A model generated the notes under the pieces. The model ran no database searches. It had not been told where the DNA came from and saw nothing but the letters and a program-made list of their open reading frames with translations. Shown here in pieces: positions 7,798 through 31,152 of a stretch of 31,152 nucleotides of DNA. The DNA comes from a virus: the UHGV virus genome UHGV-1981267, one strand, 5' to 3'. The position numbers were made by a program, and so were the translations under genes. Within the stretch, counting starts at the first letter, position 1, and each line of letters starts with the position of its first letter.

Positions 7798-7826
7798 TAT
7801 CCCCTGCGATGCAGGGGATATTTCTT
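7798..7826. terminator. Bidirectional hairpin between convergent genes
   Basis: Perfect 10-bp stem TATCCCCTGC / GCAGGGGATA with 3-nt loop. T-rich on plus side (TTTCTT). Sits between the plus-strand membrane-protein gene and the sopB 3' end. Confidence 0.5.
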
Positions 7827-8790
7827 AATTATCAGTAGATTGTTCCTCTAGTAACAACTCAATTCTGCTTAGTATTTCTTTAGATATTTTTCGGCTATCA
7901 ATTTTTATAGTTACAAAATTACCTTTATATCTAGCCGTGATCCCTTCCCCATATTTTTTCTCGTCTTTTGTTTTTTCCTCGTCGCCAACTAGAACAGAGT
8001 CAGATAATATTTGTATAATCCGTGAAGCTTCTAAATCCTCGCCGTTTTTTTTAATTGCCAGAAGATGATGAGCAGCATTGCTCATGGCAGTCATGTTTTT
8101 TTTGTAGACCTTAAACAAAGAATCTCCAGCACGAGCTGACAGTTCTCCTGGATGATTGAAGATAGCTAATATATCTTTTGGTAGACCAGCTGTATTAATA
8201 CAGCGAGTGATAATATTTCTGTCTATATTTTCAGCCTCGGCTAATGCTTTAACGTTACCATCAAAGTCATTTAGCTTGCGTAAGTATCTCTTTCCTCTTT
8301 CGTATGCACTAATAGGCCTATAATCGTTACCAATTTGGGATAACCAATGCATCTGTTCATCGTCGAGATCACCTATTAAGACGCGATAGTCACATCCTGT
8401 TAATATCGCTGCTTTTCTTCTACGTGAGCCGTCAGCGACTTCAACGACTCCAGACACTTTTCTGGCGAAAGCTGGATTTTGTTGTCCAGACGTTAGAAAA
8501 GATGGGATTAAATCGGCTAGAGAGGATTCATTTAATAAATCTTGATCGCGTTCATTACCTAGCCATACCATTGTTGCCATTTCAACTTTATCTGCGGGAA
8601 TTGTCTCTAACTTAAAGTTAACATTACGTCCGCATACTGGCAAAGTTATGCTGTTACCGGTTAATGAACTCAGTTGACGTTTTAAATCACCAACCATAGG
8701 TGATACGGGCTGATGTTCAGGGGCATGATGATTATTACTCATAATGCGATTAATATCTGGAGCATTTTTTAGAAGAGAGCGCTGTTTCAT
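7825..8790 (-). CDS. sopB: Partition protein SopB (ParB family)
   Basis: 321 aa. Blocks match recalled F SopB (ITLPVCGR, GNERDQ, IPSFL-GQQ-PAF, ADGSRRRKAA, GNDYRP-SAYERG). Start overlaps sopA stop. Confidence 0.9.
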   Translation of the reverse strand: MKQRSLLKNAPDINRIMSNNHHAPEHQPVSPMVGDLKRQLSSLTGNSITLPVCGRNVNFKLETIPADKVEMATMVWLGNERDQDLLNESSLADLIPSFLTSGQQNPAFARKVSGVVEVADGSRRRKAAILTGCDYRVLIGDLDDEQMHWLSQIGNDYRPISAYERGKRYLRKLNDFDGNVKALAEAENIDRNIITRCINTAGLPKDILAIFNHPGELSARAGDSLFKVYKKNMTAMSNAAHHLLAIKKNGEDLEASRIIQILSDSVLVGDEEKTKDEKKYGEGITARYKGNFVTIKIDSRKISKEILSRIELLLEEQSTDN

Positions 8791-9956
8791 TATTCGTTCT
8801 CCCAGCGAGGTTTTATTAGATCATCAAAAATTTCTCGGCAAACAGGGTCCCATATAGAAACAGCATTTCTCCATGCATTCAATGTTGAACGTTGGTTTGC
8901 TGCTTGTTCAAATACTGTTCTCATTTTTATCTGGCCTTTACCTACTTCATCGGTAACGCGTACAACCTGACGTAATACCATTGATCCCCATGTATTTCTT
9001 ATTTGTTCTTCCATCCATCGTGATTGATTCCCTGTAGTGAGACTATATTTAGTCAGAAGTAAGCGAACGGTTGGCTCAAATCCACCTAGGTCAACGCTTT
9101 CCAATAGATCGAGAAGCATTGTGAAAAACTGTAGAACAGAAGCGTAATCAAATAATTCTGCAGGTGTAGCAACAACAATAACGTCAGCGGCACAAACAAC
9201 GTTAATGGTTCCTGTACCGAGGTTCGGAGCACTATCTATAACGATAACATCGTAGTTATCCCAAACTGATTCAATAGCTGCGCGCAGCATAAGGTGTGGA
9301 GGATGAGGCAATTTACCCTGAGCATGATATTGCATGAGATCTGTTTCTATACGATGTAAAGCTAGGCAGCTAGGGATAATGTCTAGCCCAGGCCAACATG
9401 TTGGCTTTATAGCATATTCAGCGTTATCGCGTTCTCCTAAGTAAAATGGCAGTAAAGTATCCTCGGCATGGATATGTAAATCAGGAACATAACCGTGATA
9501 CATAGAGGCCGTGCCTTGAGGATCGTTACCTTCAACCAAAAGAACACGATGACCTTGTAATGCTAACCATTGAGCTTGATGTACCGCAGACGATGTTTTA
9601 TAAACGCCGCCTTTGTGTGACATAACGGCAAGCACAACAGGGTTTTTATCTTGTGGTCGTTGGTTTGGGTTGCCAAAAACTGCTCGCATACTGTTGATTT
9701 GATCTATGGTATAACCAGCACGACGTTCAATTCTTCCTCTCATTTCAAAGTCAGGTGCAGGTAAACGCCCGCTCTTCTCAGCATCTCTAATTGCTTGAGG
9801 AGTTACACCAATTAAATCTGCTACTTCAGTTATACCCCATCGGCGGGTGATACGCCGAGCTTCAGGACTATCATCACCGAATTGAGCGATAGCAATTGCT
9901 TGGGTCATTTCTTGACCTCTCGTAACACAATCTTGCAATAACTTTTTCAAAGACAT
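8790..9956 (-). CDS. sopA: Partition ATPase SopA (ParA family)
   Basis: 388 aa with deviant Walker A (KGGVYKTS). N-terminal HTH region. Same length as F SopA. Confidence 0.92.
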   Translation of the reverse strand: MSLKKLLQDCVTRGQEMTQAIAIAQFGDDSPEARRITRRWGITEVADLIGVTPQAIRDAEKSGRLPAPDFEMRGRIERRAGYTIDQINSMRAVFGNPNQRPQDKNPVVLAVMSHKGGVYKTSSAVHQAQWLALQGHRVLLVEGNDPQGTASMYHGYVPDLHIHAEDTLLPFYLGERDNAEYAIKPTCWPGLDIIPSCLALHRIETDLMQYHAQGKLPHPPHLMLRAAIESVWDNYDVIVIDSAPNLGTGTINVVCAADVIVVATPAELFDYASVLQFFTMLLDLLESVDLGGFEPTVRLLLTKYSLTTGNQSRWMEEQIRNTWGSMVLRQVVRVTDEVGKGQIKMRTVFEQAANQRSTLNAWRNAVSIWDPVCREIFDDLIKPRWENE

Positions 9957-18400: not shown

Positions 18401-19450
18401 GATTTCATAGCCAGTCCGCAGGCCGGTATTCCCTTTTCCTTCTGTAGCTGATTTCCGGTCATTATCCAGTGCGCAGGTGATTTTTGCCGCCGGGTACATG
18501 TTTACCAGTTGTTCCACAACATGAACCATGTTGTTAGCGGATACAGCGACAACCACAGCGTCAAAGCGTTTATCTTTTTTCGTGGCAAGCCAGATGGATG
18601 CACCAGTAGCAAAACCTTCTGTAACAGCGATGTTTTGCGCCCCTTTCAGCTCACCGATAACAAAGCAGGCACCGACGAAATCGCCGCTGGTTACGGCGCT
18701 GGTCTGGTATTTTCCACCTTGTTTGTCGATTCGCTGCCAACCAACAATACGACCATCGTAACGACCGTCCAGGTGAGCCAGAGGGATAGACATATACGTG
18801 GTTGGCCCCCTGCTCCATTTTGCGCTGTCGTGACTGGTCACGCGACGCACATCACACGAATTAAAAACGTCACGAATACCTTTTTTAATCGCATATGGCC
18901 ATGAGCCGTCTTCTGCAGGAGCATGTTCCCAAGCACTGTGGAATGCCAGCCATCCCAGCAAACGTTCATGGTCCATTTGGTTGTTTTTCAGGTCATTAAT
19001 TCGTTTTTGTTCTTCACGGCGACGACGTGCTTCGGCCTGACGTTCTATTCTTGCCCGTTCTTCTTCCGGTTGTGCGACCACGGTCGCATTATTCCGTTGT
19101 TGCTCACGGCGATATTCAGAAAACAGGAAGGAGAAACCGCTCCATGAGCCAGCATCGCTGCCTTTATGGACGAAGTTAATGAACGGGTAATCAATCCCTT
19201 TGCTGTGTTCCAGCCGGGAGTAAATTTCTACGCGTCCTTTGAGGCTCTTCTCGAGAGCTTCTGGAGATGTTTTATTGTATGAAGAGTAACGCTCAACACC
19301 CCCGCGAGGGTTGAGTTGGATGTTGTCGGAACAGGCAGACCAGTTGATACCAGCCATCTGTGCCAGCTCGGTTAGTTCATCCCGTGCTGCTTCAATTAGC
19401 GAGAACGGATCGCTGCCAAAGCGATCCGCATAGAAATCGTTTAATGTCAT
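15455..19450 (-). CDS. repA: Replication protein RepA (primase plus helicase, N15 RepA-like)
   Basis: 1331-aa ORF. Walker A GMGSGKS in the central helicase region. Size and position next to cB as in N15. Confidence 0.9.
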   Translation of the reverse strand: MTLNDFYADRFGSDPFSLIEAARDELTELAQMAGINWSACSDNIQLNPRGGVERYSSYNKTSPEALEKSLKGRVEIYSRLEHSKGIDYPFINFVHKGSDAGSWSGFSFLFSEYRREQQRNNATVVAQPEEERARIERQAEARRRREEQKRINDLKNNQMDHERLLGWLAFHSAWEHAPAEDGSWPYAIKKGIRDVFNSCDVRRVTSHDSAKWSRGPTTYMSIPLAHLDGRYDGRIVGWQRIDKQGGKYQTSAVTSGDFVGACFVIGELKGAQNIAVTEGFATGASIWLATKKDKRFDAVVVAVSANNMVHVVEQLVNMYPAAKITCALDNDRKSATEGKGNTGLRTGYEILSKFNDVRCVYPTFEDDPQMECSDFNDLHKLRGLRETARQLFATANRLKTGTDLLSLTLNRLKTIKRDNRRTFAKELLRAVDIGMLTCPVPNSPSDLFNMFCIVLREIGLENIYRATVKDHIARRLNKKCRIAQAPRSFSERITDPNKRPQHITYKRFETSVMTDDVLKYVQSLQGIVIVRAGMGSGKSTGLLRPLMHSSERGISVAHRVSLIGGLWEMMTEGKGVKADILHYQDPGYQEMAPYASKLTICINSIVKNCWQPLMRQHDYFGFDEATQGLRAVLSGRAMENPVAVFNTLIDALARTEQHPIMVDADANDLLVDLAELAMKRREELGLPAWLQIHVIELPVDLRNRETGEPIRVFYTEKDRIMTEVVKAVSNGEKIMLATDSSTFAEDVTATLRMHFPGKKFLCVNQKNKPEPEVEAFTNQPKKMVKKYDGLIYSPSISSGVSIEQKHFDRHFGMFCGEVVPSDAVQMLRRDRTAKEFIIGFDKARAKRETDPQKIERAFAQALLATAGMNGELTDVVFDGDRISMGVANTDFTRMKIKAAAIEASARNDYASNMICIMHSDGYKVSPLATDYAANDIGKDLRKEARDIVWEQTLDLHLNTETPQESEREELLKKRALTLEEQAKLVRWDIENELKLPVEEGTLKFYFDGARDKIRRYETMLLDEVTARRYDREEAAINFTYAYRQAGQWQYFVVTAMTREQADDVFKTKFLGIIDYKVKATPTVEVGARGFYALKSATLRQYFIDCGINPETMTGEATQERLKFARDNLMTAERRDLLNNVLHIGGFMTPKGKPKVPEALFKNICDSLGLKTGKRRGRDGDKRPTLRFVEPESAAFMLDILAQRQKDGLTLKTRKAEKTAIEMDRDLDLNIYMDDKTRSTNEQVQNAPHSVISEALAVLPVVVPESWAMSALSGEELATMSSWSSASIAMTFASLYLTEFMDHLSSNELRRLREYITGNSPCSYEEQGAFYG
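15736..15786. other. Candidate replication origin element inside the repA 3' region
   Basis: Inverted repeat TGGATCGCG ... CGCGATCCA flanking the AT tract CATATATATATT. Three GATC sites within about 50 bp. Confidence 0.35.
19073..19088. other. sopC-like centromere palindrome (inside repA coding sequence)
   Basis: TGCGACCACGGTCGCA: 7-bp inverted arms with 2-bp spacer. One base per arm different from the F sopC core TGGGACC-AC-GGTCCCA as recalled. Confidence 0.7.
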
Positions 19451-19601: not shown

Positions 19602-19695
19602 CGTCTTTTTTCTGCTGCTGTAACCTGAGTCAACCCACAGAACATATGCCCTGCATTAAACCAGATTTACAGTAAACAATAAACCCCATATTAAG

Positions 19696-20292: not shown

Positions 20293-20314
20293 AGCTTAAT
20301 CATAAATGATCTTC

Positions 20315-20356
20315 TTATAGCTGGCTATAAAATTTATTTATTATAGCTGGCTTTAA
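20315..20356. promoter_or_regulatory. immB operator repeats between cB and cro
   Basis: TTATAGCTGGCTATAA (20315..20330, inverted arms TTATAGC / GCTATAA) and a second copy TTATAGCTGGCTTTAA (20341..20356). TATAAT at 20372..20377 precedes the cro ATG. Confidence 0.5.
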
Positions 20357-20383
20357 TTGTTGTTTATTGTTTATAATAACAAC

Positions 20384-21305: not shown

Positions 21306-21312
21306 ACAAGTT

Positions 21313-21558
21313 ATGTTCAGGAAACCGTCGAAGCCAGAATTAAGGTATTCGGGGGTAAGAAATGAATATGTTATCTGGTGTCCAACTTGTGGTTACAGGA
21401 CACGACCAGATAGTAATAAGCAGTCTGTAATTGCCGATTGGTATTTATCAAATCAGCCAGGTAATAAGCATATAGAAAATCTTTGGATTAAGCGTTACTT
21501 GGAAATCAGAGAGGGTGCGACCGTGGTCGCACAAGAAAATGAAAATAACGCCATTTAA
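21313..21558 (+). CDS. Small zinc-ribbon protein
   Basis: Internal ATG of track ORF 21238..21558. CPTCGY motif. Contains a sopC-like site at its 3' end. Confidence 0.4.
   Translation: MFRKPSKPELRYSGVRNEYVIWCPTCGYRTRPDSNKQSVIADWYLSNQPGNKHIENLWIKRYLEIREGATVVAQENENNAI
21516..21531. other. sopC-like centromere palindrome
   Basis: TGCGACCGTGGTCGCA. Confidence 0.7.
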
Positions 21559-21742
21559 GCAGGGGCCGATGACGCATGATGAAGCAGAGCGTCTTTCAGA
21601 TACTTATCGGCGGCGTGGTAAGAAAGTTCTGGTTGTTCGTTCTGATTTTTTAGGTGATGGATATTGCGTTTATGTTCATTTACCTGAATCAGAAAGAACG
21701 CCAAAACCATCCAGAACATATCAACAGAAAATTTGGGTATAG
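21539..21742 (+). CDS. Hypothetical small protein (start uncertain; alternative ATG 21569)
   Basis: Track ORF 21515..21742. No motif recognised. Confidence 0.3.
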   Translation: MKITPFKQGPMTHDEAERLSDTYRRRGKKVLVVRSDFLGDGYCVYVHLPESERTPKPSRTYQQKIWV

Positions 21743-21765
21743 ATAAACGTTGAGGAGAATTATTC

Positions 21766-22365: not shown

Positions 22366-22784
22366 TGGCAAAGGCTTTTACACCAGAACAGAGGGAAGAA
22401 CTGAATAAACAAATTGTGGAACTCGTGCGCCTGAATGGACGAGGAACGGTTAGGCAACTTGCGGATGAAACTGGTATTAGCCGGTGTGCTGTTAGTCGTT
22501 TATCAAGAGAGCTTGCTGCCAGTGGTGATTTGTATATCTCTGGCTCCGGGATATTTCTGTCTGCACAAGCACGCAAGGACTGGCAAAACGCCCGTAAAAA
22601 ACTATCAAGAGTAAAGCCGAAGAAATCGGTAGTGGTTGATCCAGACCTTATCTGGTCATTACCTGACGGAGAAATACGTCGTTACGACAGGCGCTTGAAC
22701 ATGATTTGTCACGATTGCCGGAAAAGTGAAGTTATGCAGCGTGTGCTGGCTTTTTATCAGGGAAATTTACAGGAGGTGGCGTAG
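22365..22784 (+). CDS. Putative DNA-binding protein (HTH-like)
   Basis: 139-aa ORF. Segment TVRQLADETGISRCAVSRLSREL resembles an HTH. Start overlaps upstream stop. Confidence 0.45.
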   Translation: MAKAFTPEQREELNKQIVELVRLNGRGTVRQLADETGISRCAVSRLSRELAASGDLYISGSGIFLSAQARKDWQNARKKLSRVKPKKSVVVDPDLIWSLPDGEIRRYDRRLNMICHDCRKSEVMQRVLAFYQGNLQEVA

Positions 22785-23074
22785 TGAATATCGACACCAC
22801 GATAACGATCGATACGGCCCTAAATATCGGTCTGGCACTTCTCGGTTGGTTTTACATCATGTTCAGTGCGGGGAAGTGGGCGGCCTCTGTTTTTCTAAAG
22901 CAGTGGGGAAAGCACCGCAAACAGGAAAGACGCCAGAAAGTGTTAGAGGCGTTCTATGACGCATTTGAACTTAGCCGCATTGAGCCAGGCACAACAGCCA
23001 AGATAGCGAAAAAAGGCGACCTGATGATAGTGATGTTCCGACAGGAGAGAGCAGAGAAAGGGGAATCAGCATGA
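22784..23074 (+). CDS. Small membrane protein
   Basis: 96-aa ORF with one hydrophobic segment (LNIGLALLGWFYIMF). Confidence 0.4.
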   Translation: MNIDTTITIDTALNIGLALLGWFYIMFSAGKWAASVFLKQWGKHRKQERRQKVLEAFYDAFELSRIEPGTTAKIAKKGDLMIVMFRQERAEKGESA

Positions 23075-23730
23075 AATTTTCCAAATTTTCTGAGTTGGTG
23101 AATCGTATTTTGTCCAACAACCACAGCCATCGTCGCGATATGGATGTAACAATCGTTATTCATTCGCCTGGCAGCATTGGTTCAACACCCTCAGTTGAGG
23201 TTCAGTCAATTCACGCTGGTTTTGATTGGGATTCCGGGAAAGTGCTGATTTTCCCAGCACAGCCACTGACTACGCTAACACCAGAACAGATTACTGATAT
23301 TACTGATAGTGTGCGCAAAGGTCAGTCCTGGCACGCATATCAGGAATACAAGAAGCATAAAGAGCAGTTGGAAAAATTGTCGATTGAACTGGATGCTGCA
23401 AAACAGCGCGTAGCAGAACTGGAAGCCAAACCTGTAAGCCAAACTTACAAGTTAACTTTTGAGCAATGGCTGGAACAGCAGCATGACAAAATTGATGTTG
23501 ATTGTGGATGCGTAAGTACTGAAATGTTTATGCACTGGATAAGGGTCGCGTATGAGGCTGGCAACTCTCCGGTAACTCCGGATGGTCATGTTCAGTTTTC
23601 TGTTTCACTTCCTGCAGCGTTTGGTGGAGATAAATATTTTATTGATGGTGTATTTCAACCTTTGAGATATGAGCGTGACTGTGAAAGGGCGGTTGTGGCC
23701 GCTGGCGGTGTAGTTAATTGGGTTAAGTAA
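23071..23730 (+). CDS. Hypothetical protein with central coiled coil
   Basis: 219-aa ORF. Heptad-like segment KEQLEKLSIELDAAKQRVAELEAK. No catalytic motif recognised. Confidence 0.5.
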   Translation: MKFSKFSELVNRILSNNHSHRRDMDVTIVIHSPGSIGSTPSVEVQSIHAGFDWDSGKVLIFPAQPLTTLTPEQITDITDSVRKGQSWHAYQEYKKHKEQLEKLSIELDAAKQRVAELEAKPVSQTYKLTFEQWLEQQHDKIDVDCGCVSTEMFMHWIRVAYEAGNSPVTPDGHVQFSVSLPAAFGGDKYFIDGVFQPLRYERDCERAVVAAGGVVNWVK

Positions 23731-23745
23731 TTTTCAGGAGGATTT

Positions 23746-24072
23746 ATGGCGCTGACACCGGCAGAACGGCAAAGGAGACGCAGGGAACGGTTGAAGAAGG
23801 AAGGCACATCAAGACGGGACTGGATTCTAGAACCTGACGAGTTACGTATGTTGGGGGAAATTTGTGTATTGCGTAGACCAGGGCGAGTTCCATATTCGGA
23901 GAACGAAGTCATTGGTTTGCTGATCAGGAAAAACTATAAGGAGCTGCAGAAGCAGCTATCTACTACTTGCCCGCGATGTGGTCAAAAAATGCCTGTTTCA
24001 GAATGCATTTTTGATGGCGAAGGGTCATGCCACCTTACAACCACGAGGCTGAAACTTGCGCTCAAAGCGTGA
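23746..24072 (+). CDS. Hypothetical basic protein with zinc-ribbon-like CPRCG...C...C
   Basis: 108-aa ORF. SD AGGAGG upstream. Arg-rich N-terminus. Confidence 0.5.
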   Translation: MALTPAERQRRRRERLKKEGTSRRDWILEPDELRMLGEICVLRRPGRVPYSENEVIGLLIRKNYKELQKQLSTTCPRCGQKMPVSECIFDGEGSCHLTTTRLKLALKA

Positions 24073-24090
24073 CTGGTCACGGAGGGATAA

Positions 24091-24333
24091 ATGGATAAAA
24101 AGGCATTGCTTTTTGAAATGATACGAAAACGGAGCGAAAAGAGCTTTTCTGATGGTGGTGATGGGTTTGTTTTCGCTTCGATGCTTGCTTTTGATGTTGG
24201 GTTAAATAGCAGAATTGTTAAAAGGATGCTTGATTCTGCTGTCCGTACTGGACTTCTTGAGAAAGTTGATCGTGGCATAGGGAGAGAGCATAAGTATCGG
24301 GCCACACAGCAGTTTACGCAGTTAATTCATTGA
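24091..24333 (+). CDS. Hypothetical protein
   Basis: 80-aa ORF with SD GGAGGG upstream. Confidence 0.45.
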   Translation: MDKKALLFEMIRKRSEKSFSDGGDGFVFASMLAFDVGLNSRIVKRMLDSAVRTGLLEKVDRGIGREHKYRATQQFTQLIH

Positions 24334-24415
24334 AAATTGACCGTAAAGTTTGAGTTTTACCCTGTAATTTTATACAGTACAAACAACCTTTTTTAGTTAA
24401 ATGGTATGAGATTTA

Positions 24416-24619
24416 ATGTCTGAAGCAGCCGTATCAACTCTTGAACAACTCGATTCAAATTTAAGAGATATTGACGCCATTCTGGATCTGGTTAGCGTCA
24501 CCCTGGCTTCTCCAGAAGCCAGCCTACATATTGGTGAGGTTTCACGACTCATCAACATGTCGCGAGAGATTGCCCAGCATTGTCAGAAAACTATCGCTGT
24601 TGAGCGTTCACATCATTGA
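24416..24619 (+). CDS. Hypothetical protein
   Basis: 67-aa ORF. Convergent with the toxin-antitoxin pair. Confidence 0.4.
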   Translation: MSEAAVSTLEQLDSNLRDIDAILDLVSVTLASPEASLHIGEVSRLINMSREIAQHCQKTIAVERSHH

Positions 24620-24661
24620 TGCACACCCCGCCCTTCTGGACGGGGTAGTAAAAGAGTCTAA

Positions 24662-24949
24662 TTAATAAACAGCGCGAATATCGATGGCTGCGCCGCAGGC
24701 ATGAGCATATTTAGCCAAAGTTTTCATACTTGCCCCTAAAGGATTGCTTTCCAGGCGGCTGATGGCTGACGGTCGTAACCCCATTCGTTCAGCCAGAGCT
24801 GATTTCGTTAAACCTGCTCTTTCCCTCATTTCGTATAACATTTCGACCATCTCCAGCTCTTTGTCGGCCTCTTCATATCCTTTGACGGCTTCTGGAGTGT
24901 TGAGGAGTTTTTCTTTTACTTCGTTAAACGGGATGCCTTTCGCTTTCAT
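24662..24949 (-). CDS. HTH antitoxin (HigA / Xre-like)
   Basis: 95 aa. HTH LTKSALAERMGLRPSAISRLES. Immediately downstream of, and overlapping, the toxin gene. Confidence 0.8.
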   Translation of the reverse strand: MKAKGIPFNEVKEKLLNTPEAVKGYEEADKELEMVEMLYEMRERAGLTKSALAERMGLRPSAISRLESNPLGASMKTLAKYAHACGAAIDIRAVY

Positions 24950-25260
24950 CAGTTCATCTCCTTCAGGCGAGTTCTGGCGATTTCGATAGCCTTCACCGGT
25001 GTTTTCTGTGTCTTTTTTACAAATGCATGCAATAGATAAATTTCGTTACCAGTCGCGTAGACGTACAGCGTTCTTGCGATGTTTTTATCCCCTACTCGTA
25101 GTTCAAAAAGCCCTCCACCTATTACACGGCTATGGGGCATCTTCAGTTTGTTGCCTTCTTTCTCCAGTCGCTCAATTAATCTGGCCATGCGACCTCGCAA
25201 ATCATCTGGTAGTTCAAGCAGTTCATCCAGTGCTGCAGGGTGGGTTATCACGTTAAACAT
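24949..25260 (-). CDS. RelE/ParE-superfamily toxin (HigB / Gp49-like)
   Basis: ATG at 25260 with SD GGAGG. Motifs GGGLFELRVGDK..IARTLYVYATGNEIYLLHAFVKKTQKTP typical of this toxin family. Track ORF extends to 25305. Confidence 0.8.
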   Translation of the reverse strand: MFNVITHPAALDELLELPDDLRGRMARLIERLEKEGNKLKMPHSRVIGGGLFELRVGDKNIARTLYVYATGNEIYLLHAFVKKTQKTPVKAIEIARTRLKEMN

Positions 25261-25425
25261 ATTATAGCCTCCACATCCATAAAATACACCAAAACAAGAA
25301 AACAATGTAAATTAAAAATTTCACTAAAAAGCGAAAAATAACACTGGATGTGTTCGTTTGGCAGAGTTACAGTTCGTGTCATTGAGGGGCAATAACCCAC
25401 TAACTATATGAATTTGGAGGATATT

Positions 25426-25647
25426 ATGAATTATCAAGGTAACGAAAAAATGCGCGACGACGTTGCGGAGATAGCTAACGAACTGTATGAGTTGTGGCAG
25501 AAGGTTGAACGTTTCGAAAAGGAATATGGTTTCAACAGTACCAACCTGGCAGACCGACTGGCTGGTCGCTTAGTTGGGACTATGGGGCCAAAACTGGCTG
25601 AGTTGAACCGCTTTATGGCTGATGTTGATTTCCAGTTTCAAGATTGA
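25426..25647 (+). CDS. Hypothetical protein
   Basis: ATG at 25426 with SD GGAGG (25416..25420). Track ORF begins at 25408. Confidence 0.5.
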   Translation: MNYQGNEKMRDDVAEIANELYELWQKVERFEKEYGFNSTNLADRLAGRLVGTMGPKLAELNRFMADVDFQFQD

Positions 25648-25660
25648 TTAGAGAGGCGTT

Positions 25661-25888
25661 ATGAATATTAATGAAATTCGTGGAAATATGACTGAAGCGG
25701 CCCTGAGTGTGGAATGTGTTATGCGTGGATACCCACGCATTTCCCTGAAAGAGTTAAGCGAAGCCTGTTTTTTGAGTCAAGCTGCCGTTGAATTTATCAT
25801 CGAACAGATGATCTGTTTTGGGGTTGCAAAGCGTAGCGGGTCTGGTCGATATTCTTTGACCGATGAATATAAGCAGGCAACTTTCTAA
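25661..25888 (+). CDS. Hypothetical protein
   Basis: 75-aa ORF closely following the previous gene. Confidence 0.45.
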   Translation: MNINEIRGNMTEAALSVECVMRGYPRISLKELSEACFLSQAAVEFIIEQMICFGVAKRSGSGRYSLTDEYKQATF

Positions 25889-25894
25889 AAACTG

Positions 25895-25910
25895 TGCGAC
25901 CACGGTCGCA
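25895..25910. other. sopC-like centromere palindrome
   Basis: TGCGACCACGGTCGCA, within the longer palindrome CTGTGCGACCACGGTCGCACAG. Confidence 0.7.
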
Positions 25911-25930
25911 CAGCACAAAAACGAAAAAGC

Positions 25931-25960
25931 TTGGCAAAATTACGGTTTTTAGTTATTGTT
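25931..25960 (+). promoter_or_regulatory. Candidate sigma70 promoter (possible late promoter)
   Basis: TTGGCA (25931..25936), 18-bp spacer, TATTGT (25955..25960). Followed closely by hairpins and a terminator. Confidence 0.35.
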
Positions 25961-25997
25961 TTGTTAAGTTGGGTTTTTTGTACCCAACAGCCAACAA

Positions 25998-26022
25998 GCC
26001 GCCTTTATGGCGGTTTTTTTGT
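25998..26022 (+). terminator. Intrinsic terminator downstream of the candidate promoter (tR'-like)
   Basis: Stem GCCGCC / GGCGGT, loop TTTAT, then a 7-T run. A second hairpin GTTGGG...CCCAAC lies at 25968..25988. Confidence 0.6.
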
Positions 26023-26110
26023 GCCTGAAAAGTGGGCGCAGGACAAGTTGCAGCTTGTCCTGCGGTCAACCCATGCCAGAGCTATAGGCTGAACCTAAAG
26101 CCCACCCGCG

Positions 26111-27232
26111 ATGCGCATCGCCGGGTTAGCTTACCCAGGCAAAAAAATAATAGCTATGTTCAAAACCACTAATATTCATGGCGCGCAACTCGTTTGCGCA
26201 GATTCTCTGCAATTTATCAAAACCATCCCTGATAACTCGGTCAATTTGATTGCAACAGACCCACCATACTTCGGCGTAAAGGCTAACGCATGGGATAACC
26301 AGTGGGATAGCGATGCTGACTTTTTGGGGTGGATTGATGAATTTTTGGCAGAATTTTGGCGGATATTGGCCCCTAATGGCAGCCTGTATATGTTTACCGG
26401 CTCTCGCCTTGCGTCAAAAATTGAATTATTAACTCGCGACCGTTTCAATGTTCTGAACCATATCATTTGGGCTAAACCCAGTGGTATGTGGCGCGGTTGT
26501 CATAAAGAAAGTTTAAGGGCTTATTTTCCTGCCACTGAAAGAATATTATTTGCAGAGCATTACGGCGCGTCAGGTTATGCTAAAGGTCAGTCAGGTTATG
26601 CTTCAAAATGTGCAGATTTAAGAAAAAATATTTTTTCTCCACTAATTGATGCTTTTTCGCTGGCTCGCCGTCAGTTAGATATATCAGCCGCAGACATTAA
26701 TTCAGCAACAGGAAAGCAGATGTGTTCGCACTGGTTTTCTTATTCGCAGTGGCGGCTTCCATCATTAAGTGATTTTAATAAACTATGCGAATTATTTCGC
26801 AGGAAGGCAGATTCACTCGGTGTCCCGTGTCCATATCCTTTTAATGTTGATTATTCAGAACATGAAAAGCGTTATAGCGATCTGAAATTGCGTTATGAGG
26901 AAGTAAAGAAGCAGTATGATGATTTGAAGGCTCAGTATGAAAATTTGCGCCGCCCATTTCATGTTACTGCTGATGTACCTTATACCGATGTATGGGAGTT
27001 TCCTCCTGTGCAATATTATCCTGGCAAGCACCCATGTGAAAAACCTGCAGCGATGATGGAACATATTATAAAAAGTAGTTCCCGCCCCGGAGATATCGTT
27101 GCCGATTTCTTTATGGGATCAGGCTCTACTATTAAAGCCGCGCTGAAGTTAGGTCGTCAGGCAATCGGTATTGAGATTGAGGGTGAACGTTATCTTCAGA
27201 CAGTTGATGAAGTGAAAAAGTTATTTGAGTAA
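26111..27232 (+). CDS. DNA methyltransferase, likely N6-adenine (beta-class amino-MTase)
   Basis: DPPY motif near the N-terminus (LIATDPPYFG). FxGxG-type AdoMet motif near the C-terminus (DFFMGSGST). Alternative start ATG 26156. Confidence 0.8.
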   Translation: MRIAGLAYPGKKIIAMFKTTNIHGAQLVCADSLQFIKTIPDNSVNLIATDPPYFGVKANAWDNQWDSDADFLGWIDEFLAEFWRILAPNGSLYMFTGSRLASKIELLTRDRFNVLNHIIWAKPSGMWRGCHKESLRAYFPATERILFAEHYGASGYAKGQSGYASKCADLRKNIFSPLIDAFSLARRQLDISAADINSATGKQMCSHWFSYSQWRLPSLSDFNKLCELFRRKADSLGVPCPYPFNVDYSEHEKRYSDLKLRYEEVKKQYDDLKAQYENLRRPFHVTADVPYTDVWEFPPVQYYPGKHPCEKPAAMMEHIIKSSSRPGDIVADFFMGSGSTIKAALKLGRQAIGIEIEGERYLQTVDEVKKLFE

Positions 27233-27327
27233 CTGAAGAATATATTCCCCTGCCGTTTTTGATGGGGTTATTTCTCGCCGTATAGTTTCCAAGCCGAAAC
27301 CTCAGCAACTATTGCGAGGTAAGAGAT

Positions 27328-27600
27328 ATGAAGATGGATGAACGATACAGCAGCGCATCTTATGGTAGTGCTGGTCTTACTGCGTTCTTTGCCAGCCTGT
27401 CATTGCAGGATTGGGGCTTCATTATCGGTGTCGCGTTCAGCATTATCCTCGGTGTACTTACATACCGGCTCAATAAACGCGAGCAGATGAAGCGCACGAA
27501 GATATTGCAGGACATATTGGATAAAACTGATGCCAATAATATTTCCGCCACGGCGATGGTTATTGGTGAATTGGGAAAGAGAGCACCGAAGGAAATATGA
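27328..27600 (+). CDS. Pinholin (phage 21 S21-like class II holin) with dual-start motif
   Basis: MKM dual start. Pattern [35 protein letters not shown] parallels recalled S21. Directly precedes a SAR endolysin. Confidence 0.75.
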
Positions 27601-28097
27601 TGCAGTCATCATTACGCAAAGCTGTCGCAACAGCTATTGGTGGCGGGGCTATTGCCATAGCATCTGTGCTCATCTCTGGTCCGAGCGGCAACGATGGTCT
27701 GGAAGGTGTGAGACATAACCCCTACAAAGACATCGTTGGTGTATGGACTGTATGTTACGGGCATACAGGAAAAGACATTATGCTCGGTAAAACGTATACC
27801 GAAGCAGAATGCAAAGCTCTCCTGAATAAAGACCTTGCTACTGTCGCCAGACAAATTAACCCGTACATCAAAGTCGATATACCGGAAACAACGCGTGGTG
27901 CTCTTTACTCGTTCGTTTACAACGTGGGTGCAGGCAATTTCAGAACATCGACACTTCTTCGCAAAATCAACCAGGGCGATATCAAAGGTGCATGTGATCA
28001 ACTACGTCGCTGGACATATGCTGGCGGTAAGCAATGGAAAGGGCTGATGACTCGCCGTGAGATTGAGCGTGAAGTCTGTTTGTGGGGGCAGCAATGA
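27597..28097 (+). CDS. SAR endolysin (lysozyme, phage 21 R-like)
   Basis: N-terminal signal-anchor-release segment [33 protein letters not shown] and lysozyme core. ATG overlaps the holin stop. Confidence 0.9.
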
Positions 28098-28561
28098 GCA
28101 GAGTAACCGCAATTATCTCCGCACTGGTTATCTGCATCATCGTCTGCCTGTCGTGGGCTGTTAATCATTACCGTGATAACGCCATCGCCTACAAAGAACA
28201 GCGTGATAAAAAAGTCAGTGAGCTGAAGCAGGCGACCGCCACCATCGCTGACATGCAGCAGCGTCAGCGTGATGTTGCTGCGCTCGATGCAAAATACACG
28301 AAGGAGTTGGCTGATGCGAAAGCTGAAAATGATGCTCTTCGGCGCAAGCTTGATAATGGTGGTCGGGTGCTCGTCAAAGGAAAATGCTCTGTGCCATCCT
28401 CAGCCGAAACCTCCAGCGCCTCCGGCATGGGCAATGATGCCACCGTCGAACTCTCTCCAGTTGCTGGACGAAACGTTCTCGGTATCCGGGACGGAATCAT
28501 CAGAGACCAGACAGCACTGAGAACGCTTCAGGAATACATCAAGACGCAATGCCCGAATTAA
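28094..28561 (+). CDS. Rz: Spanin inner-membrane subunit Rz
   Basis: [30 protein letters not shown]... closely matches recalled lambda Rz. ATG overlaps the endolysin stop. Confidence 0.88.
28314..28520 (+). CDS. Rz1: Spanin outer-membrane lipoprotein subunit Rz1, embedded in the +1 frame of Rz
   Basis: SD AAGGAG 7 nt upstream of ATG 28314. Lipobox VVGC. Proline-rich mature part [11 protein letters not shown]. Confidence 0.8.
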
Positions 28562-28602
28562 TCCCTCTGTATCAAAAACGAACTCAATTTGTTGGATAGT
28601 GA

Positions 28603-28914
28603 ATGAAAATTTATATTGCCGGGCCAATGACTGGATATGAGAACTTTAATCGTGACGCCTTTAATAAAGAGGCAGATCGTTTGTCACGACATGGTCACTC
28701 TGTCTTGAATCCAGCCACTTTGCCTAATGGTCTGACACAACGTGAATACATGGATATTTGCTTTGCAATGCTTCGTTGTGCTGATGCTATTTTGATGCTT
28801 CCTGGCTGGAAAGCGTCTGCTGGAGCAACTGCTGAGTATCATTACGCATACAAGATGGAGATGCCGGTATTCACTACGCTGAATTACCCGCCAGCTTGTT
28901 CCTCTGTAGCATAA
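28603..28914 (+). CDS. DUF4406-like small protein (nucleoside 2-deoxyribosyltransferase-like fold family)
   Basis: N-terminal MKIYIAGPMTG motif, which I recall as typical of this prophage protein family. Confidence 0.5.
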   Translation: MKIYIAGPMTGYENFNRDAFNKEADRLSRHGHSVLNPATLPNGLTQREYMDICFAMLRCADAILMLPGWKASAGATAEYHYAYKMEMPVFTTLNYPPACSSVA

Positions 28915-28934
28915 AAATCTCTTTGTTTCTCGTG

Positions 28935-28950
28935 TGCGACCGTGGTCGCA
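28935..28950. other. sopC-like centromere palindrome
   Basis: TGCGACCGTGGTCGCA. Confidence 0.7.
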
Positions 28951-28961
28951 CATTAAATACC

Positions 28962-29138
28962 GCGCTGCATCGTCGCCGTATTTCCGCATTAACCATGACC
29001 GTAGCCCGACGGGGAACTCCTCTGCGCGAGTGTGCGGAAATAATCAAAAACGATGCACACCGGGTTTTTACCGCGCTAATGATTCGCGGGTTTGTCCCTC
29101 ATGCTCGCCAGTCCTGTGCGAGGGTGGAAGAAACAGGG
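28962..29138 (+). repeat. Direct repeat copy 1 (duplicate of the cos-proximal sequence at 30744..30921)
   Basis: About 178 bp, roughly 85-90% identical by eye to copy 2, with one 1-bp indel. Flanked on both sides by sopC-like palindromes. Confidence 0.8.
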
Positions 29139-29154
29139 CATGTATTCAGGAGCG

Positions 29155-29170
29155 TGCGACCGTGGTCGCA
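29155..29170. other. sopC-like centromere palindrome
   Basis: TGCGACCGTGGTCGCA. Confidence 0.7.
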
Positions 29171-29194
29171 CGGTATCTTTGTCAGGAGGTTTTG

Positions 29195-30055
29195 ATGAAA
29201 GAGTTGCAAAAAATTAATTCAATAATGGAAAGATTAAGTGCTCTTGAGCGTAAGCTGGACGATTGTGGAAAGCTGTGTGTTGAAAAGCAAAATGAGCTTT
29301 ACCGGGAATTTTTTACAATCGTAAGTGAGCTGATGCCAATTGTTAATAACTGCCTGATGACATCCAGATTTTTTAATGTCGATGCTACTACATCCAGAAA
29401 ATTTTCTGTGAAAATTCAAGAAAGAGTTTCTGGTAGTGTGACAAGAGAGATGGCTGAACAGTTGGTGGCAATGAGCAATAAAACAAAAAGAAAAAAGGCA
29501 TTGCTTGTAACAGCAAATCAGCTTTCAGGGCGCGTTGACTTTCAGGTCAGACAGGGTGGGCGTGTACTGGTAAATGATGCGTTCGTTGGACGTAGCTTTA
29601 GTCCTTACTCGATAAAATATGATGTTGATGCAGATGATCAGGATATCAGCATTTCCTGGAAATCTGAGACAGCAGGGATTGTATTAACAGCAGAGTTGTT
29701 GAGTGATGATAAAAATGATGTCCAGCATCATTTGGACGAAAAGAATCATATTTCTGAAATTTGTATGAAGCCACGCAGCGGAATGACTTTATTGTCACGC
29801 ACTCTTGCTGCTGGCTTTTCTGCACCGGAAAAACGTGTGCTTCTGGTAGTGCCTGAAGATGCAGATATTCGACCACTGAATGGCTGTGATGTTATTAGTG
29901 CAAAAACATTGCATACCCGCGTCATTCCTGTACCGGATGTGGTCATTATTGATGATGTTGAGAAATGCAAGTCTGTTTCCTCAACTGCCACAATCAAGCG
30001 AATTTTACGTTGTAGCACGTCGGCTGTTGTATTCCGGAAGCAGTTACATAACTAA
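29195..30055 (+). CDS. Hypothetical protein (287 aa), no recognisable motif; first gene of the repeat-bracketed cargo
   Basis: Strong SD AGGAGG 5 nt before ATG 29195. Visibly AT-rich. Track ORF 28934..30055 extends upstream through the repeat, and I treat that extension as non-coding. Confidence 0.6.
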   Translation: MKELQKINSIMERLSALERKLDDCGKLCVEKQNELYREFFTIVSELMPIVNNCLMTSRFFNVDATTSRKFSVKIQERVSGSVTREMAEQLVAMSNKTKRKKALLVTANQLSGRVDFQVRQGGRVLVNDAFVGRSFSPYSIKYDVDADDQDISISWKSETAGIVLTAELLSDDKNDVQHHLDEKNHISEICMKPRSGMTLLSRTLAAGFSAPEKRVLLVVPEDADIRPLNGCDVISAKTLHTRVIPVPDVVIIDDVEKCKSVSSTATIKRILRCSTSAVVFRKQLHN

Positions 30056-30178
30056 CCAGTTTTGTTTTGCAGAACATCCTCAACTAAAAGCTTATAGAAA
30101 GAGAGCCTGAGATATTTTTTCTGTCTCTCGTAGTTGTTTATTTTTCTCGAACAGGCTTACAACTTACAGGATATAAAC

Positions 30179-30628
30179 ATGCAAGAAGAAGCAAATAAAA
30201 TTCTTGTTGATTTATTGAAGAAGGCCAGCGATGGAATTGATTCCGCCATTGCATTCAGTCAGGCTCAGATTCCGGATGTTGTTCATCAGTTGCTGGTATG
30301 GAATATGGTTGATAGCCTGATTAAAACATTAATAGCCATTTCAACAATCCCGCTGGTTTTCTGGTTTATGAAAAAACAGTACCAAAAAGTTGAAATTGGT
30401 ATATTCGATAATGAAGGATGGTCATGGGAGAAGGGAAAGCCTAAATACAAACCGACTATGATTTGGGAAAGTAACGGTGAGATTAGTTTTCTTATCTTAC
30501 CATTAGCAGCAGTTTTTGTTCTGTGGGTAAGTTTTATTATTGCTGTAGTAACCAATATGACATGGTTAAAAATCTGGTTGGCACCTAAGTTATATCTAAT
30601 CGAATACGCAGCATCACTAATTAAATAG
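30179..30628 (+). CDS. Small membrane protein (two predicted TM helices); second gene of the cargo
   Basis: ATG 30179 within track ORF 30134..30628. Hydrophobic segments LIKTLIAISTIPLVFWF and ISFLILPLAAVFVLWVSFIIAVV. Confidence 0.5.
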   Translation: MQEEANKILVDLLKKASDGIDSAIAFSQAQIPDVVHQLLVWNMVDSLIKTLIAISTIPLVFWFMKKQYQKVEIGIFDNEGWSWEKGKPKYKPTMIWESNGEISFLILPLAAVFVLWVSFIIAVVTNMTWLKIWLAPKLYLIEYAASLIK

Positions 30629-30743
30629 TCCATTACAAAAGCCATTCGCTACTGAGTGGCTTTGATAATGGCTTATACCCTGCACGGGATAACTTAACTG
30701 ATATCCCTTTTAACGGATAAAGGTATTCAAGCCTGACACATCA

Positions 30744-30921
30744 TGCGCTGCATCGTCGCCGTATTTCCGCATTAACCATGACCGTAGCCCGACGGGGAAT
30801 TCCTTCTGCGCGAGTGTGCGTAAATAATCAAAAACGATGCACACCGGGTTTTTACCGCGTTTATGGTGCGCGGTTTTGTCCCTCATAGTCGCCCGTCCGG
30901 TGCGATGGTGGAAGAAGCTGG
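30744..30921 (+). repeat. Direct repeat copy 2, contiguous with cos
   Basis: Matches copy 1 at 28962..29138 and runs into the lambda-like cosQ/cosN region. Confidence 0.8.
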
Positions 30922-30924
30922 ATA

Positions 30925-31152
30925 TTAATGCAAGTGATAATTATTCTCACCTTTGCGGGTCCTTTCCGGCGATCCGGCAGGCTACGGGGCGGAAGGCGCG
31001 CGGGTTTTCGCTATTTATGAAAATTTTCCGGTTTAAGGCGTTTCCGTTCTTCTTCGCCGTAACTTAATGTTTTTATTTAAAACACCCCCTGAAAAGAAAG
31101 GAAACGACAGATGCTGAAAACGGGCTTTTTGTCCTATGTCGTTTCCTTTCTC
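30925..31152 (+). other. cos: Lambda-like cos region (cosQ, cosN, start of cosB)
   Basis: Near-colinear with recalled lambda termini (...GGGTCCTTTCCGGCGATCC...TTACG | GGGCGG...CGCGGGTTTTCGCTATTTATGAAAATTTTCCGGTTTAAGGCG...). The presumptive 12-nt cosN at 30987..30998 reads GGGCGGAAGGCG. Confidence 0.8.

What the first reader, a model, noticed from the sequence alone, without database searches (positions are those of the whole stretch)
28935..29170. Two sopC-like centromere palindromes 220 bp apart flank the duplicated cos-proximal sequence
TGCGACCGTGGTCGCA occurs at 28935..28950 and 29155..29170, exactly bracketing repeat copy 1. A paired centromere site at the edge of a cargo insertion is unusual. 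It could be a preferred recombination or insertion point, or a SopB nucleation site that silences or insulates the neighbouring module.
Basis: partly seen in the sequence, partly recalled or inferred. Interest (0 to 1): 0.5.

Follow-up and report, generated by a model that had tools for sequence, protein, structure and literature searches.

The report
Doubled SopB centromere site in N15-like phage-plasmid
The two palindromes are ordinary SopB-binding centromere sites of an N15-type linear phage-plasmid, with the fourth of N15's four known sites present twice, and they enclose a dead copy of a common lambdoid DNA segment, so this is a small variation on a known partition system.

Summary
TGCGACCGTGGTCGCA sits at 28935-28950 and 29155-29170, and the two copies enclose repeat copy 1 (28962-29148).

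The window is the right 31 kb of an N15-like linear phage-plasmid. It is 100% identical to Escherichia phage PhiR46_1 over the region compared (28400-29700).

The same motif occurs three more times (19073, 21516, 25895). These match the positions of N15/phiKO2 sites IR1-IR3. The 18-bp core equals the N15 IR1/IR4 sequences used experimentally, and the window's SopB is 73% identical to N15 SopB.

Site 28935 is the syntenic IR4, directly 3' of the DUF4406 gene as in phiKO2. Site 29155 is a fifth, extra site.

Doubled sites are not peculiar to this locus. Relatives have IR4 pairs 181 and 155 bp apart with unrelated DNA between them, and tandem IR3 pairs 47 bp apart. Complete genomes carry 4 to 7 sites.

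The enclosed 187 bp is a truncated, frame-broken copy of a lambdoid cos-proximal element found in 3181 of 5426 E. coli genomes.

The two repeat copies do recombine. One plasmid has a hybrid copy, one site and no cargo. Another lineage has let the first site decay. Both suggest the two sites are redundant.

Silencing, insulation or recombination roles remain untested. Interest is low to moderate.

The parts
28934..28951 (.). IR4a. N15-type SopB-binding inverted repeat GTGCGACCGTGGTCGCAC (16-bp core 28935-28950). It is the syntenic equivalent of IR4 in N15 and phiKO2.
   Evidence: Exact match. It lies 20 bp after the DUF4406 stop codon, as the annotated 'putative plasmid partitioning site' does in phiKO2. 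The core equals the N15 IR4 oligo.
29154..29171 (.). IR4b. A second, extra SopB-binding inverted repeat with the identical 18-mer, 23 bp upstream of the ATG of cargo gene 1.
   Evidence: Its 16-mer is invariant in all 12 distinct relatives aligned. It is absent from N15, phiKO2 and pZ1323HEC0355-3, which each have 4 sites.
28962..29148 (+). Repeat copy 1. A 5'-truncated, decayed copy of a lambdoid cos-proximal element, of the allele type seen in phage 4A7.
   Evidence: families D4, D6. 93.7% identical to the right end of phage 4A7. The minus-strand 58-aa ORF is broken by a stop at codon 9 and a frameshift in the IR-flanked copies examined.
30745..30932 (+). Repeat copy 2. The same element in its native place, about 55 bp upstream of cosN, with an intact minus-strand 58-aa ORF (30710-30886).
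   Evidence: Window 30630-30744 continues the homology to the right end of lambdoid phage mEp460 at about 96%.
19072..19089 (.). IR1-equivalent SopB site, inside the repA coding sequence.
   Evidence: Same position as N15 33479 and phiKO2 36304.
21515..21532 (.). IR2-equivalent SopB site, after the Q-like gene. It sits at the right edge of the conserved repA-to-Q block.
   Evidence: The homology block to N15, phiKO2 and two Klebsiella plasmids ends at 21571-21575 in all four comparisons.
25894..25911 (.). IR3-equivalent SopB site, at the position that lies upstream of the annotated late promoter in N15 and phiKO2.
   Evidence: Synteny with N15 41124 and phiKO2 43783, which lie just upstream of the annotated late promoters.
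7825..8790 (-). sopB (ParB family), the protein expected to bind the five sites.
   Evidence: 73% identity to N15 SopB over 318 aa. PhiR46_1 annotates a ParB gene at the corresponding position.
8790..9956 (-). sopA (ParA-type ATPase), the partition motor partner.
   Evidence: 388-aa ORF. Annotated ParA/SopA in PhiR46_1 and related plasmids.
28603..28914 (+). DUF4406 (nucleoside 2-deoxyribosyltransferase-like) gene. It is the conserved left neighbour of IR4 across the family.
   Evidence: Pfam PF14359, E = 3.7e-34. Homologous block in N15, phiKO2, L130 and L134.
29195..30055 (+). Cargo gene 1, 286 aa, function unknown (phrog_2571).
   Evidence: Among phage records it is found only in PhiR46_1 and YDC107_1. 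A divergent 69-aa allele follows IR4b in plasmid NZ_LT906558.
30179..30628 (+). Cargo gene 2, 149 aa, a probable membrane protein (phrog_3054).
   Evidence: About 80% DNA identity to genes of other phages such as HF4s, Sf6 gene 34 and Stx2a phages.
30955..30998 (+). cosQ-like sequence (GCGGGTCCTTTCCGG) and the inferred 12-nt cosN (GGGCGGAAGGCG, 30987-30998).
   Evidence: Read and aligned by eye to the N15 ends and to lambda (my knowledge). This is inference.

Best explanation
Both palindromes are binding and loading sites for the phage-plasmid's own SopB (ParB-family) protein. Together with three more sites (19072, 21515, 25894) they form the dispersed centromere of an N15-type linear plasmid prophage.

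SopB dimers bound at these sites nucleate partition complexes, and SopA then segregates them. Site 28935 is the ancestral IR4. Site 29155 is an added fifth site, so this lineage has a doubled IR4. The two are functionally redundant or additive.

The 187 bp between them has no role of its own. It is a decayed fragment of a lambdoid cos-proximal element, and its junctions fall next to the two sites. The intact second copy next to cos came with a lambdoid-type right end.

The two copies act as direct repeats for homologous recombination, which can delete the second site and the cargo.

What is shown: sequence identity to the N15 sites, synteny, the cognate SopB gene, recurrence of doubled sites in relatives, the deletion derivative, and decay of one site in one lineage.

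What is inferred: actual SopB binding here, additivity of the two sites, and the order of the historical events.
For: 1. The motif occurs 5 times against 0.18 expected, and there are no isolated half-sites. The whole 46.3-kb PhiR46_1 genome has exactly these five.

2. The N15 IR1-IR4 oligos in PMC7205306 Table 4 carry the same GTGCGACC-NN-GGTCGCAC core. N15 SopB forms foci on a 4xIR array in that paper. Dispersed N15 centromere sites are cited in PMC3235114.

3. N15 and phiKO2 have four sites at the same gene positions, and the phiKO2 record annotates them as partitioning sites, with IR4 right after its DUF4406 gene.

4. The window's SopB is 73% identical to N15 SopB, with a near-identical central segment around residues 180-230.

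5. All five centres are AC/GT, meeting the purine-pyrimidine rule found for F SopB.

6. Doubling recurs in relatives.
- IR4 pairs at 181 bp (L057) and 155 bp (L130), with unrelated spacer DNA.
- IR3 tandem pairs at 47 bp (L130, L134).
- 4 to 7 sites per genome.
- In IMG/VR: 12 contigs with the 220-bp pair, 8 with the 47-bp pair, 2 with about 155 bp, 1 with 181 bp.

7. There are signs of redundancy.
- pZ1323HEC0355-3 has one IR4 and a copy1/copy2 hybrid.
- L081 and L094 carry a mutated IR4a (GTGCGATCGTGGTCGCTC) with an intact IR4b.

8. The enclosed copy is decayed.
Against: No binding or stability data exist for this phage-plasmid.

The module is young: copy 1 is 98-100% identical among carriers. 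Conservation of both sites and of the exact 220-bp spacing therefore says little about selection.

IR4b could be a neutral passenger that arrived with cargo gene 1.

IR4b also scores as a weak terminator-like hairpin, and the N15 record annotates its IR4 as a putative terminator. A transcriptional role in addition cannot be excluded.
Confidence: 0.85

Rival explanations
1. SopB roadblock or silencer. SopB loaded at the pair spreads over flanking DNA and represses or insulates cargo gene 1, whose ATG is 23 bp from IR4b. Alternatively it blocks read-through from the lysis/DUF4406 block towards cos and the head genes in the prophage, or it modulates late expression. Doubling the site would strengthen this effect. 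This would come in addition to partition.
For: - The pair lies inside the late transcription unit, between the lysis genes and cos.
- No sigma-70-like promoter is predicted between 28500 and 30173 on the + strand, so cargo gene 1 probably depends on read-through across the sites.
- Doublings in relatives occur at IR3 and IR4, both in the late region.
- A published title states that the N15 Sop system facilitates late gene expression (Ravin, Rech and Lane 2008, seen only as a reference).
- ParB spreading is described for P1.
Against: - There are no expression data.
- N15 and phiKO2 manage with a single IR4.
- The consensus promoter scan is crude.
- The 2008 paper could not be read, so the direction and site-dependence of its effect are unknown to me.
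Confidence: 0.2
2. Recombination or insertion hot spot. The palindromes themselves promote illegitimate or site-associated recombination, which would explain why module junctions sit next to them.
For: - Both ends of the captured lambdoid fragment lie within 10 and 5 nt of a site. In NZ_LT906558 homology to phage 4A7 runs to within 0-2 nt of IR4b.
- The conserved repA-to-Q block ends about 40 bp past IR2 in four comparisons.
- IR4 marks the start of the family's variable cargo region.
Against: - IR1 and IR3 lie inside conserved blocks.
- Functional non-coding sites are expected to survive only at gene and module borders, which gives the same pattern without any causal role.
- The gene after IR4b in NZ_LT906558 is a divergent allele of cargo gene 1, not a new insertion.
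- The one clear recombination event used the 187-bp repeats.
- An 18-bp palindrome is short for cruciform or hairpin-driven breakage (my knowledge).
Confidence: 0.15
3. RNA hairpins or intrinsic terminators. The inverted repeats act in the transcript to end or stabilise late-operon or cargo mRNAs, rather than acting as DNA sites.
For: - Each folds to a hairpin of about -14 to -16 kcal/mol.
- IR4b is picked by the terminator-like scan.
- The N15 record labels IR4 a putative rho-independent terminator.
Against: - IR4a is followed by AUUAAAUACC with no U tract, and the IR4b tail is weak.
- The folding z-scores of -1.5 and -1.7 are unremarkable.
- The identical 16-mer also lies inside the repA coding sequence.
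- Strict conservation of all 14 arm bases across unrelated contexts fits protein recognition, not a stem.
Confidence: 0.08
4. Small mobile element. The identical 18-mers are the terminal repeats of a MITE-like element that carries the 187-bp segment.
For: Identical palindromic ends flank a discrete 200-bp segment.
Against: - There is no target-site duplication: the flanks are TTTCTCGT and GGTATCTT.
- The module occurs only at this one genomic position, in 32 of 5426 E. coli genomes and 12 IMG/VR contigs.
- The interior is an ordinary lambdoid sequence found without the palindromes in more than 3000 genomes.
Confidence: 0.02

Closest known systems
Dispersed Sop centromere of phage-plasmid N15 (IR1-IR4; Ravin and Lane 1999; Grigoriev and Lobocka 2001), and the four annotated 'putative plasmid partitioning sites' of phiKO2
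   Same: - Same 16/18-bp inverted repeat.
- Same cognate sopAB type.
- Same kind of replicon (telN, repA, lambdoid late genes).
- Same gene positions for IR1, IR2, IR3 and for IR4a, which sits after the DUF4406 gene and before cos.
   Different: - Five sites instead of four: IR4 is present twice, 220 bp apart, around a captured lambdoid fragment.
- All five centres are AC/GT, whereas N15 IR2 has TC and IR3 has AT.
- In N15 a cytosine methylase gene separates the DUF4406 gene from IR4.
F-plasmid sopC
   Same: - Homologous SopB protein family.
- A 16-bp inverted repeat with the same layout and a purine-pyrimidine centre.
- The arms differ from F only at position 3 (TGCGACC versus TGGGACC).
   Different: - sopC is an array of 12 tandem 43-bp repeats next to sopB. 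Here the sites are single or paired and lie 9-21 kb from sopB.
- F SopB does not work with N15 IRs, while N15 SopB accepts both (PMC7205306).
Doubled IR sites in Klebsiella and metagenomic N15-like phage-plasmids (NZ_CP036330, pSg1-3, IMG/VR contig 3300036796_000076)
   Same: - Extra SopB sites at the IR4 position (155 and 181 bp apart), and at IR3 (47 bp apart).
- Same motif and same flanking genes.
   Different: - The spacer DNA is unrelated.
- The Klebsiella pairs are local tandem duplications with similar flanks.
- The pair here has dissimilar flanks and encloses foreign lambdoid DNA.

Membership tests
N15-type dispersed Sop centromere sites (IR sites) | Inverted repeat (G)TGCGACC-NN-GGTCGCA(C), matching the experimentally used N15 sites | tested here: met
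   Both sites are GTGCGACCGTGGTCGCAC, the reverse complement of the N15 IR1/IR4 core in PMC7205306 Table 4.
N15-type dispersed Sop centromere sites (IR sites) | Cognate N15-type sopA-sopB operon on the same replicon | tested here: met
   SopB at 7825-8790 is 73% identical to N15 SopB. SopA is at 8790-9956.
N15-type dispersed Sop centromere sites (IR sites) | Several copies dispersed over the replication, immunity and late-gene half of a linear plasmid prophage that has telN and telRL | tested here: met
   Five sites at 19072-29171. None are in the head, tail or sop half of PhiR46_1. telN is at 10605-12512, and there is a 42-bp perfect-type palindrome at 10393-10434.
N15-type dispersed Sop centromere sites (IR sites) | Synteny with IR4 of N15 and phiKO2 (downstream of the DUF4406 gene, upstream of cos) | tested here: met
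   IR4a lies 20 bp after the DUF4406 stop, as in phiKO2. IR4b has no counterpart in N15 or phiKO2.
N15-type dispersed Sop centromere sites (IR sites) | Specific SopB binding, and a contribution to plasmid stability | not testable with these tools
   This needs ChIP, EMSA and stability assays. It is only inferred from sequence identity.
F-plasmid sopC centromere | Consensus TGGGACCACGGTCCCA | tested here: not met
   Position 3 of each arm is C, not G (against PMC3177203).
F-plasmid sopC centromere | Tandem array of 43-bp repeats adjacent to sopB | tested here: not met
   The two sites are 220 bp apart with non-repetitive DNA between them, and lie about 20 kb from sopB.
Rho-independent terminator | G+C-rich hairpin immediately followed by a U tract | tested here: inconclusive
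   The hairpins are present. IR4a has no U tract. IR4b has a weak tail and is picked by a permissive scan that finds 5 hits against 2.6 expected in the region.
MITE-like mobile element | Terminal inverted repeats, a target-site duplication, and copies at multiple loci | tested here: not met
   There is no duplication of flanking bases. The module is found only at this locus in relatives.
Duplicated or pseudo cos site | cosQ, cosN and cosB following the repeat copy | tested here: not met
   Copy 1 is followed by IR4b and cargo gene 1. The cosQ/cosN-like sequence occurs only after copy 2.

The most novel reading that the evidence does not exclude
SopB sites have multiplied several times independently at the two late-region positions. 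IR4 pairs occur at 220, 181 and 155 bp with unrelated spacers, and IR3 occurs as a 47-bp tandem repeat. This could reflect selection for a second job of SopB in these phage-plasmids: a stronger roadblock, insulator or activator acting on the late operon and the cos-proximal cargo. The 47-bp tandems could also be an early stage of a sopC-like array evolving from dispersed single sites.
Probability: 0.15. Interest if true: 0.5.

Novelty: new member of a known kind. Interest (0 to 1): 0.22.

Why it matters
It matters little for the individual locus. It adds one more SopB site to a well-characterised type of dispersed centromere.

The comparative result is more useful:
- N15-like phage-plasmids carry 4 to 7 such sites.
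- Doublings recur at the IR3 and IR4 positions.
- One site of a pair can decay or be deleted.

This gives a natural series for testing how centromere number and spacing affect the stability of linear plasmids. It would also test whether SopB bound in the late operon affects expression of phage late genes and cargo genes.

The direct repeats also show one concrete route by which the cos-proximal cargo of these elements is lost.

Tried and rejected
- Rfam scan of 28400-31152 at E <= 1: no match.
- Pfam, NCBIfam and PADLOC searches on the two cargo proteins and the 58-aa ORF: nothing apart from DUF4406. PHROGs gave only families of unknown function.
- I first read the repeat element as the ylcI/ynfO gene, because some E. 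coli hits list that product. A DLP12-like locus shows the element lies between iss/bor and ylcI and overlaps ylcI by only 7 bp, so I withdrew that reading.
- pZ1323HEC0355-3 looked like an ancestral 'empty site'. I rejected this because its single copy is a copy1-5'/copy2-3' chimera, the signature of deletion between the repeats.
- Tandem duplication as the origin of this pair: the flanks of IR4a and IR4b are unrelated, unlike the Klebsiella pairs.
- Helical phasing: 220 bp is about 21 turns, but the other pairs (181, 155, 47 bp) are not in phase, so nothing follows from it.
- Homology between cargo gene 1 and the genes after IR4 in N15, phiKO2 and a Klebsiella plasmid: none.
- Three key N15 papers (Ravin and Lane 1999; Ravin et al. 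2008; Grigoriev and Lobocka 2001) are not held in the library. What I say about them rests on citing papers or on their titles.

Full report
**1. The observation**

Reading 28500-29700 and searching the motif confirm TGCGACCGTGGTCGCA at 28935-28950 and 29155-29170. With the flanking G and C each site is the 18-mer GTGCGACCGTGGTCGCAC: 8-bp arms around a GT centre.

The window holds five such sites in all. The others are at 19073, 21516 and 25895. Allowing three mismatches, shuffles give 0.18 matches. The 8-mer arm GTGCGACC occurs nowhere else in the window.

Copy 1 is 28962-29148 and copy 2 is 30745-30932. Identity is 98% over the first 60 nt and 86% over the remaining 128 nt. Copy 1 starts 10 nt after the first 18-mer and ends 5 nt before the second. 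Copy 2 ends about 55 bp before the cohesive-end site, which I place at 30987-30998 by alignment to lambda and N15 (inference).

**2. What the replicon is**

The window runs as follows:
- tail genes
- sopB-sopA (7825-9956, minus strand)
- a 42-bp palindrome (10393-10434)
- a protelomerase gene
- a 1331-aa repA
- repressor, cro-like and Q-like genes
- a methylase gene and the lysis genes
- a DUF4406 gene
- two small cargo genes
- cos

The region compared (28400-29700) is 100% identical to Escherichia phage PhiR46_1, a 46,290-bp record written telomere to telomere, and 99.2% identical to phage YDC107_1 (genus Ravinvirus). It is therefore an N15-like linear phage-plasmid. The whole PhiR46_1 genome has exactly the five sites seen in the window and none in its head, tail or sop half.

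**3. What the palindromes are**

N15 has four sites of the same motif:
- 33480, inside repA
- 35931, after the Q-like gene
- 41125, just upstream of the late promoter
- 45562, between gene 58 and gene 59 near cos

PMC7205306 (Table 4) lists the oligonucleotides for N15 IR1-IR4. All carry GTGCGACC-NN-GGTCGCAC, and IR1 and IR4 have the AC centre, which is the reverse complement of the sites here. The same paper reports that N15 SopB forms foci on a 4xIR array. It also reports that F SopB does not function with N15 IRs, whereas N15 SopB accepts both kinds of site. PMC3235114 cites N15 as a case of dispersed centromere-like sites.

The phiKO2 record annotates four 'putative plasmid partitioning sites' at the same four gene positions. 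The fourth lies directly after its DUF4406-type gene gp58.

The window's SopB is 73% identical to N15 SopB. The F consensus is TGGGACCACGGTCCCA and needs a purine-pyrimidine centre (PMC3177203). The sites here differ from it at arm position 3 and satisfy the centre rule.

On this evidence the sites at 19072, 21515 and 25894 are IR1, IR2 and IR3. The site at 28934 is IR4, lying 20 bp after the DUF4406 gene. The site at 29154 is a fifth, extra site. I call the last two IR4a and IR4b. Binding itself is inferred, not shown.

**4. Is a pair unusual?**

It is unusual relative to N15 and phiKO2, but not within the family.

Sites per complete genome:

| Genome | Sites | Notes |
|---|---|---|
| N15 | 4 | |
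| phiKO2 | 4 | |
| E. coli pZ1323HEC0355-3 | 4 | |
| PhiR46_1 | 5 | |
| K. pneumoniae pSg1-3 | 6 | IR3 as a 47-bp tandem pair, plus a site in the head-gene region |
| K. pneumoniae NZ_CP036330 | 7 | IR3 pair at 47 bp, IR4 pair at 155 bp, head site |

A metagenomic relative (L057) has a DUF4406 gene 76% identical to the one here. It is followed by an IR with N15-IR4-like flanks, 163 bp of unrelated DNA, a second IR, and then cos about 55 bp further on.

Pair-specific scans of IMG/VR gave:
- the 220-bp pair in 13 stretches from 12 contigs, always at exactly 220 bp
- the 47-bp pair in 10 stretches from 8 contigs
- a pair at about 155 bp in 2 stretches
- the 181-bp pair once

The Klebsiella pairs have similar flanks and so are local tandem duplications. 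The pair here has unrelated flanks.

All 193 sites in the first 120 IMG/VR loci fall into five context classes: IR1, IR2, IR3, IR4 and head. Only two sites could not be assigned.

**5. What lies between the two sites**

The 187 bp is a copy of a sequence that normally sits just upstream of cosQ/cosN in lambdoid phages. In phage 4A7 it is followed by about 42 bp and then cosQ-cosN.

It matches 3181 of 5426 complete E. coli genomes, almost always on the chromosome. Only 32 genomes hold the form with both palindromes.

Copy 1 is the 4A7-type allele (93.7% identity). Copy 2 is a different allele, and its homology to the right end of mEp460-type phages extends leftwards to about 30630.

A minus-strand ORF of 58 aa is intact in copy 2 and in many native copies. 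In the IR-flanked copies it carries a stop at codon 9, usually together with a frameshift, and it also lacks its last 11 codons.

The element gave no Rfam, Pfam or NCBIfam match. It is not ylcI: in a DLP12-like prophage it lies between iss/bor and ylcI.

The spacer between the two sites therefore looks like a dead fragment. I infer that the selected features are the palindromes.

**6. History and dynamics**

Relatives keep the block DUF4406 - IR4a - copy 1 - IR4b, with copy 1 at 98-100% identity, while the DNA from IR4b to cos varies:
- NZ_CP126957 has an internal cargo deletion.
- NZ_CP055603 has lost 29548-30927, including copy 2.
- NZ_LT906558 has only a divergent 69-aa allele of cargo gene 1 between IR4b and cosQ, and no copy 2.

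The pair is therefore not tied to the duplication.

pZ1323HEC0355-3 has one IR4 followed by a single element. Its 5' diagnostic positions are those of copy 1 and its 3' positions are those of copy 2. This is the product expected from homologous recombination between the two copies, and it removes IR4b and the cargo.

In L081 and L094, IR4a reads GTGCGATCGTGGTCGCTC. One of the two changes is at arm position 6, which is important in F. IR4b is intact in both. Loss of either site in different lineages suggests redundancy.

The genes after IR4 are unrelated in N15, phiKO2, the Klebsiella plasmid and this window. The stretch from IR4 to cos is thus the family's variable cargo region. Similarly, the conserved repA-to-Q block ends about 40 bp past IR2 in four comparisons. 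IR1 and IR3 lie inside conserved blocks.

**7. Mechanism**

Most likely (confidence 0.85), both sites load SopB and contribute to the partition complexes of the linear prophage, and IR4b adds a second loading point next to IR4a. In prophage coordinates the sites lie at 7.9, 10.4, 14.8, 17.8 and 18.0 kb of 46.3 kb, so the pair is the most central.

Additional roles remain open.
- **SopB roadblock, silencing or late-gene effect.** The pair sits in the late operon 23 bp from cargo gene 1, and no + strand promoter is predicted upstream of that gene. A published title reports that N15 Sop facilitates late gene expression (reference seen).
- **Recombination hot spot.** The evidence is correlation only.
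- **Terminator hairpins.** Support is weak: IR4a has no U tract, and the same 16-mer sits inside repA.
- **Mobile element.** This reading is rejected.

**8. Verdict**

It is more precisely an N15 IR-type site and not a member of the F sopC array type.

The arrangement is a lineage-specific doubling of a known site. It is one instance of a recurrent pattern in N15-like phage-plasmids. The bracketing of the repeat is a by-product of mosaic recombination.

Novelty: a new member of a known kind. Interest: low to moderate.

Noticed in passing
L130 29883-29947 and L134 10777-10841 (K. pneumoniae N15-like plasmids); also 8 IMG/VR contigs: At the IR3 position these plasmids carry two SopB sites as a 47-bp head-to-tail tandem repeat with near-identical flanks (ttttctttct-IR-agttttt). 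This resembles a two-unit version of the 43-bp sopC array of F.
   Followed up: partly
L130 17375-17392; L134 21812-21829: Klebsiella-type relatives have an additional SopB-type site inside the head-gene region, a position with no counterpart in N15, phiKO2 or this window. 38 of the 193 IMG/VR sites fall in this class.
   Followed up: partly
window 30745-30932 (and 28962-29148): The cos-proximal element of about 190 bp matches 3181 of 5426 complete E. coli genomes (lambdoid prophages). It carries a minus-strand 58-aa ORF (MRDK...NTFIR) that is intact in many copies. It has no Pfam, NCBIfam, PHROG or Rfam match, so its function is unknown.
   Followed up: partly
window 10393-10434: A 42-bp palindrome (two 21-nt arms, 95% complementary, no spacer) lies about 170 bp upstream of the protelomerase gene. 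It is presumably the telRL telomere-resolution site. The window therefore has the virion-type gene order across the prophage ends.
   Followed up: no
window 4477-5010: The 794-aa tail-fibre-like ORF (3979-6363) contains arrays of 21-nt repeats and a 189-nt tandem duplication (4519-4707 and 4708-4896, 91% identical).
   Followed up: no
window 30179-30628: Cargo gene 2 encodes a 149-aa protein with hydrophobic stretches (phrog_3054, function unknown). It is about 80% identical at the DNA level to genes of unrelated temperate phages (HF4s 'TM helix-containing protein', Sf6 gene 34, Stx2a phages). It may be a moron, for example an exclusion protein.
   Followed up: no
L081 and L094 (IMG/VR), position equivalent to window 28934-28951: IR4a carries two substitutions (GTGCGATCGTGGTCGCTC) while IR4b is intact. 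This is a natural single-site variant for testing redundancy.
   Followed up: partly
L130 31225-32433 and 42272-43411: The K. pneumoniae N15-like plasmid NZ_CP036330 carries a TnpB-family gene and a colicin-like pore-forming protein gene as cargo.
   Followed up: no
window 21515-21575: Homology of the repA-to-Q block to N15, phiKO2 and two Klebsiella plasmids stops at 21571-21575 in every comparison, about 40 bp beyond IR2. IR2, like IR4, therefore sits at the left edge of a variable accessory-gene region.
   Followed up: partly
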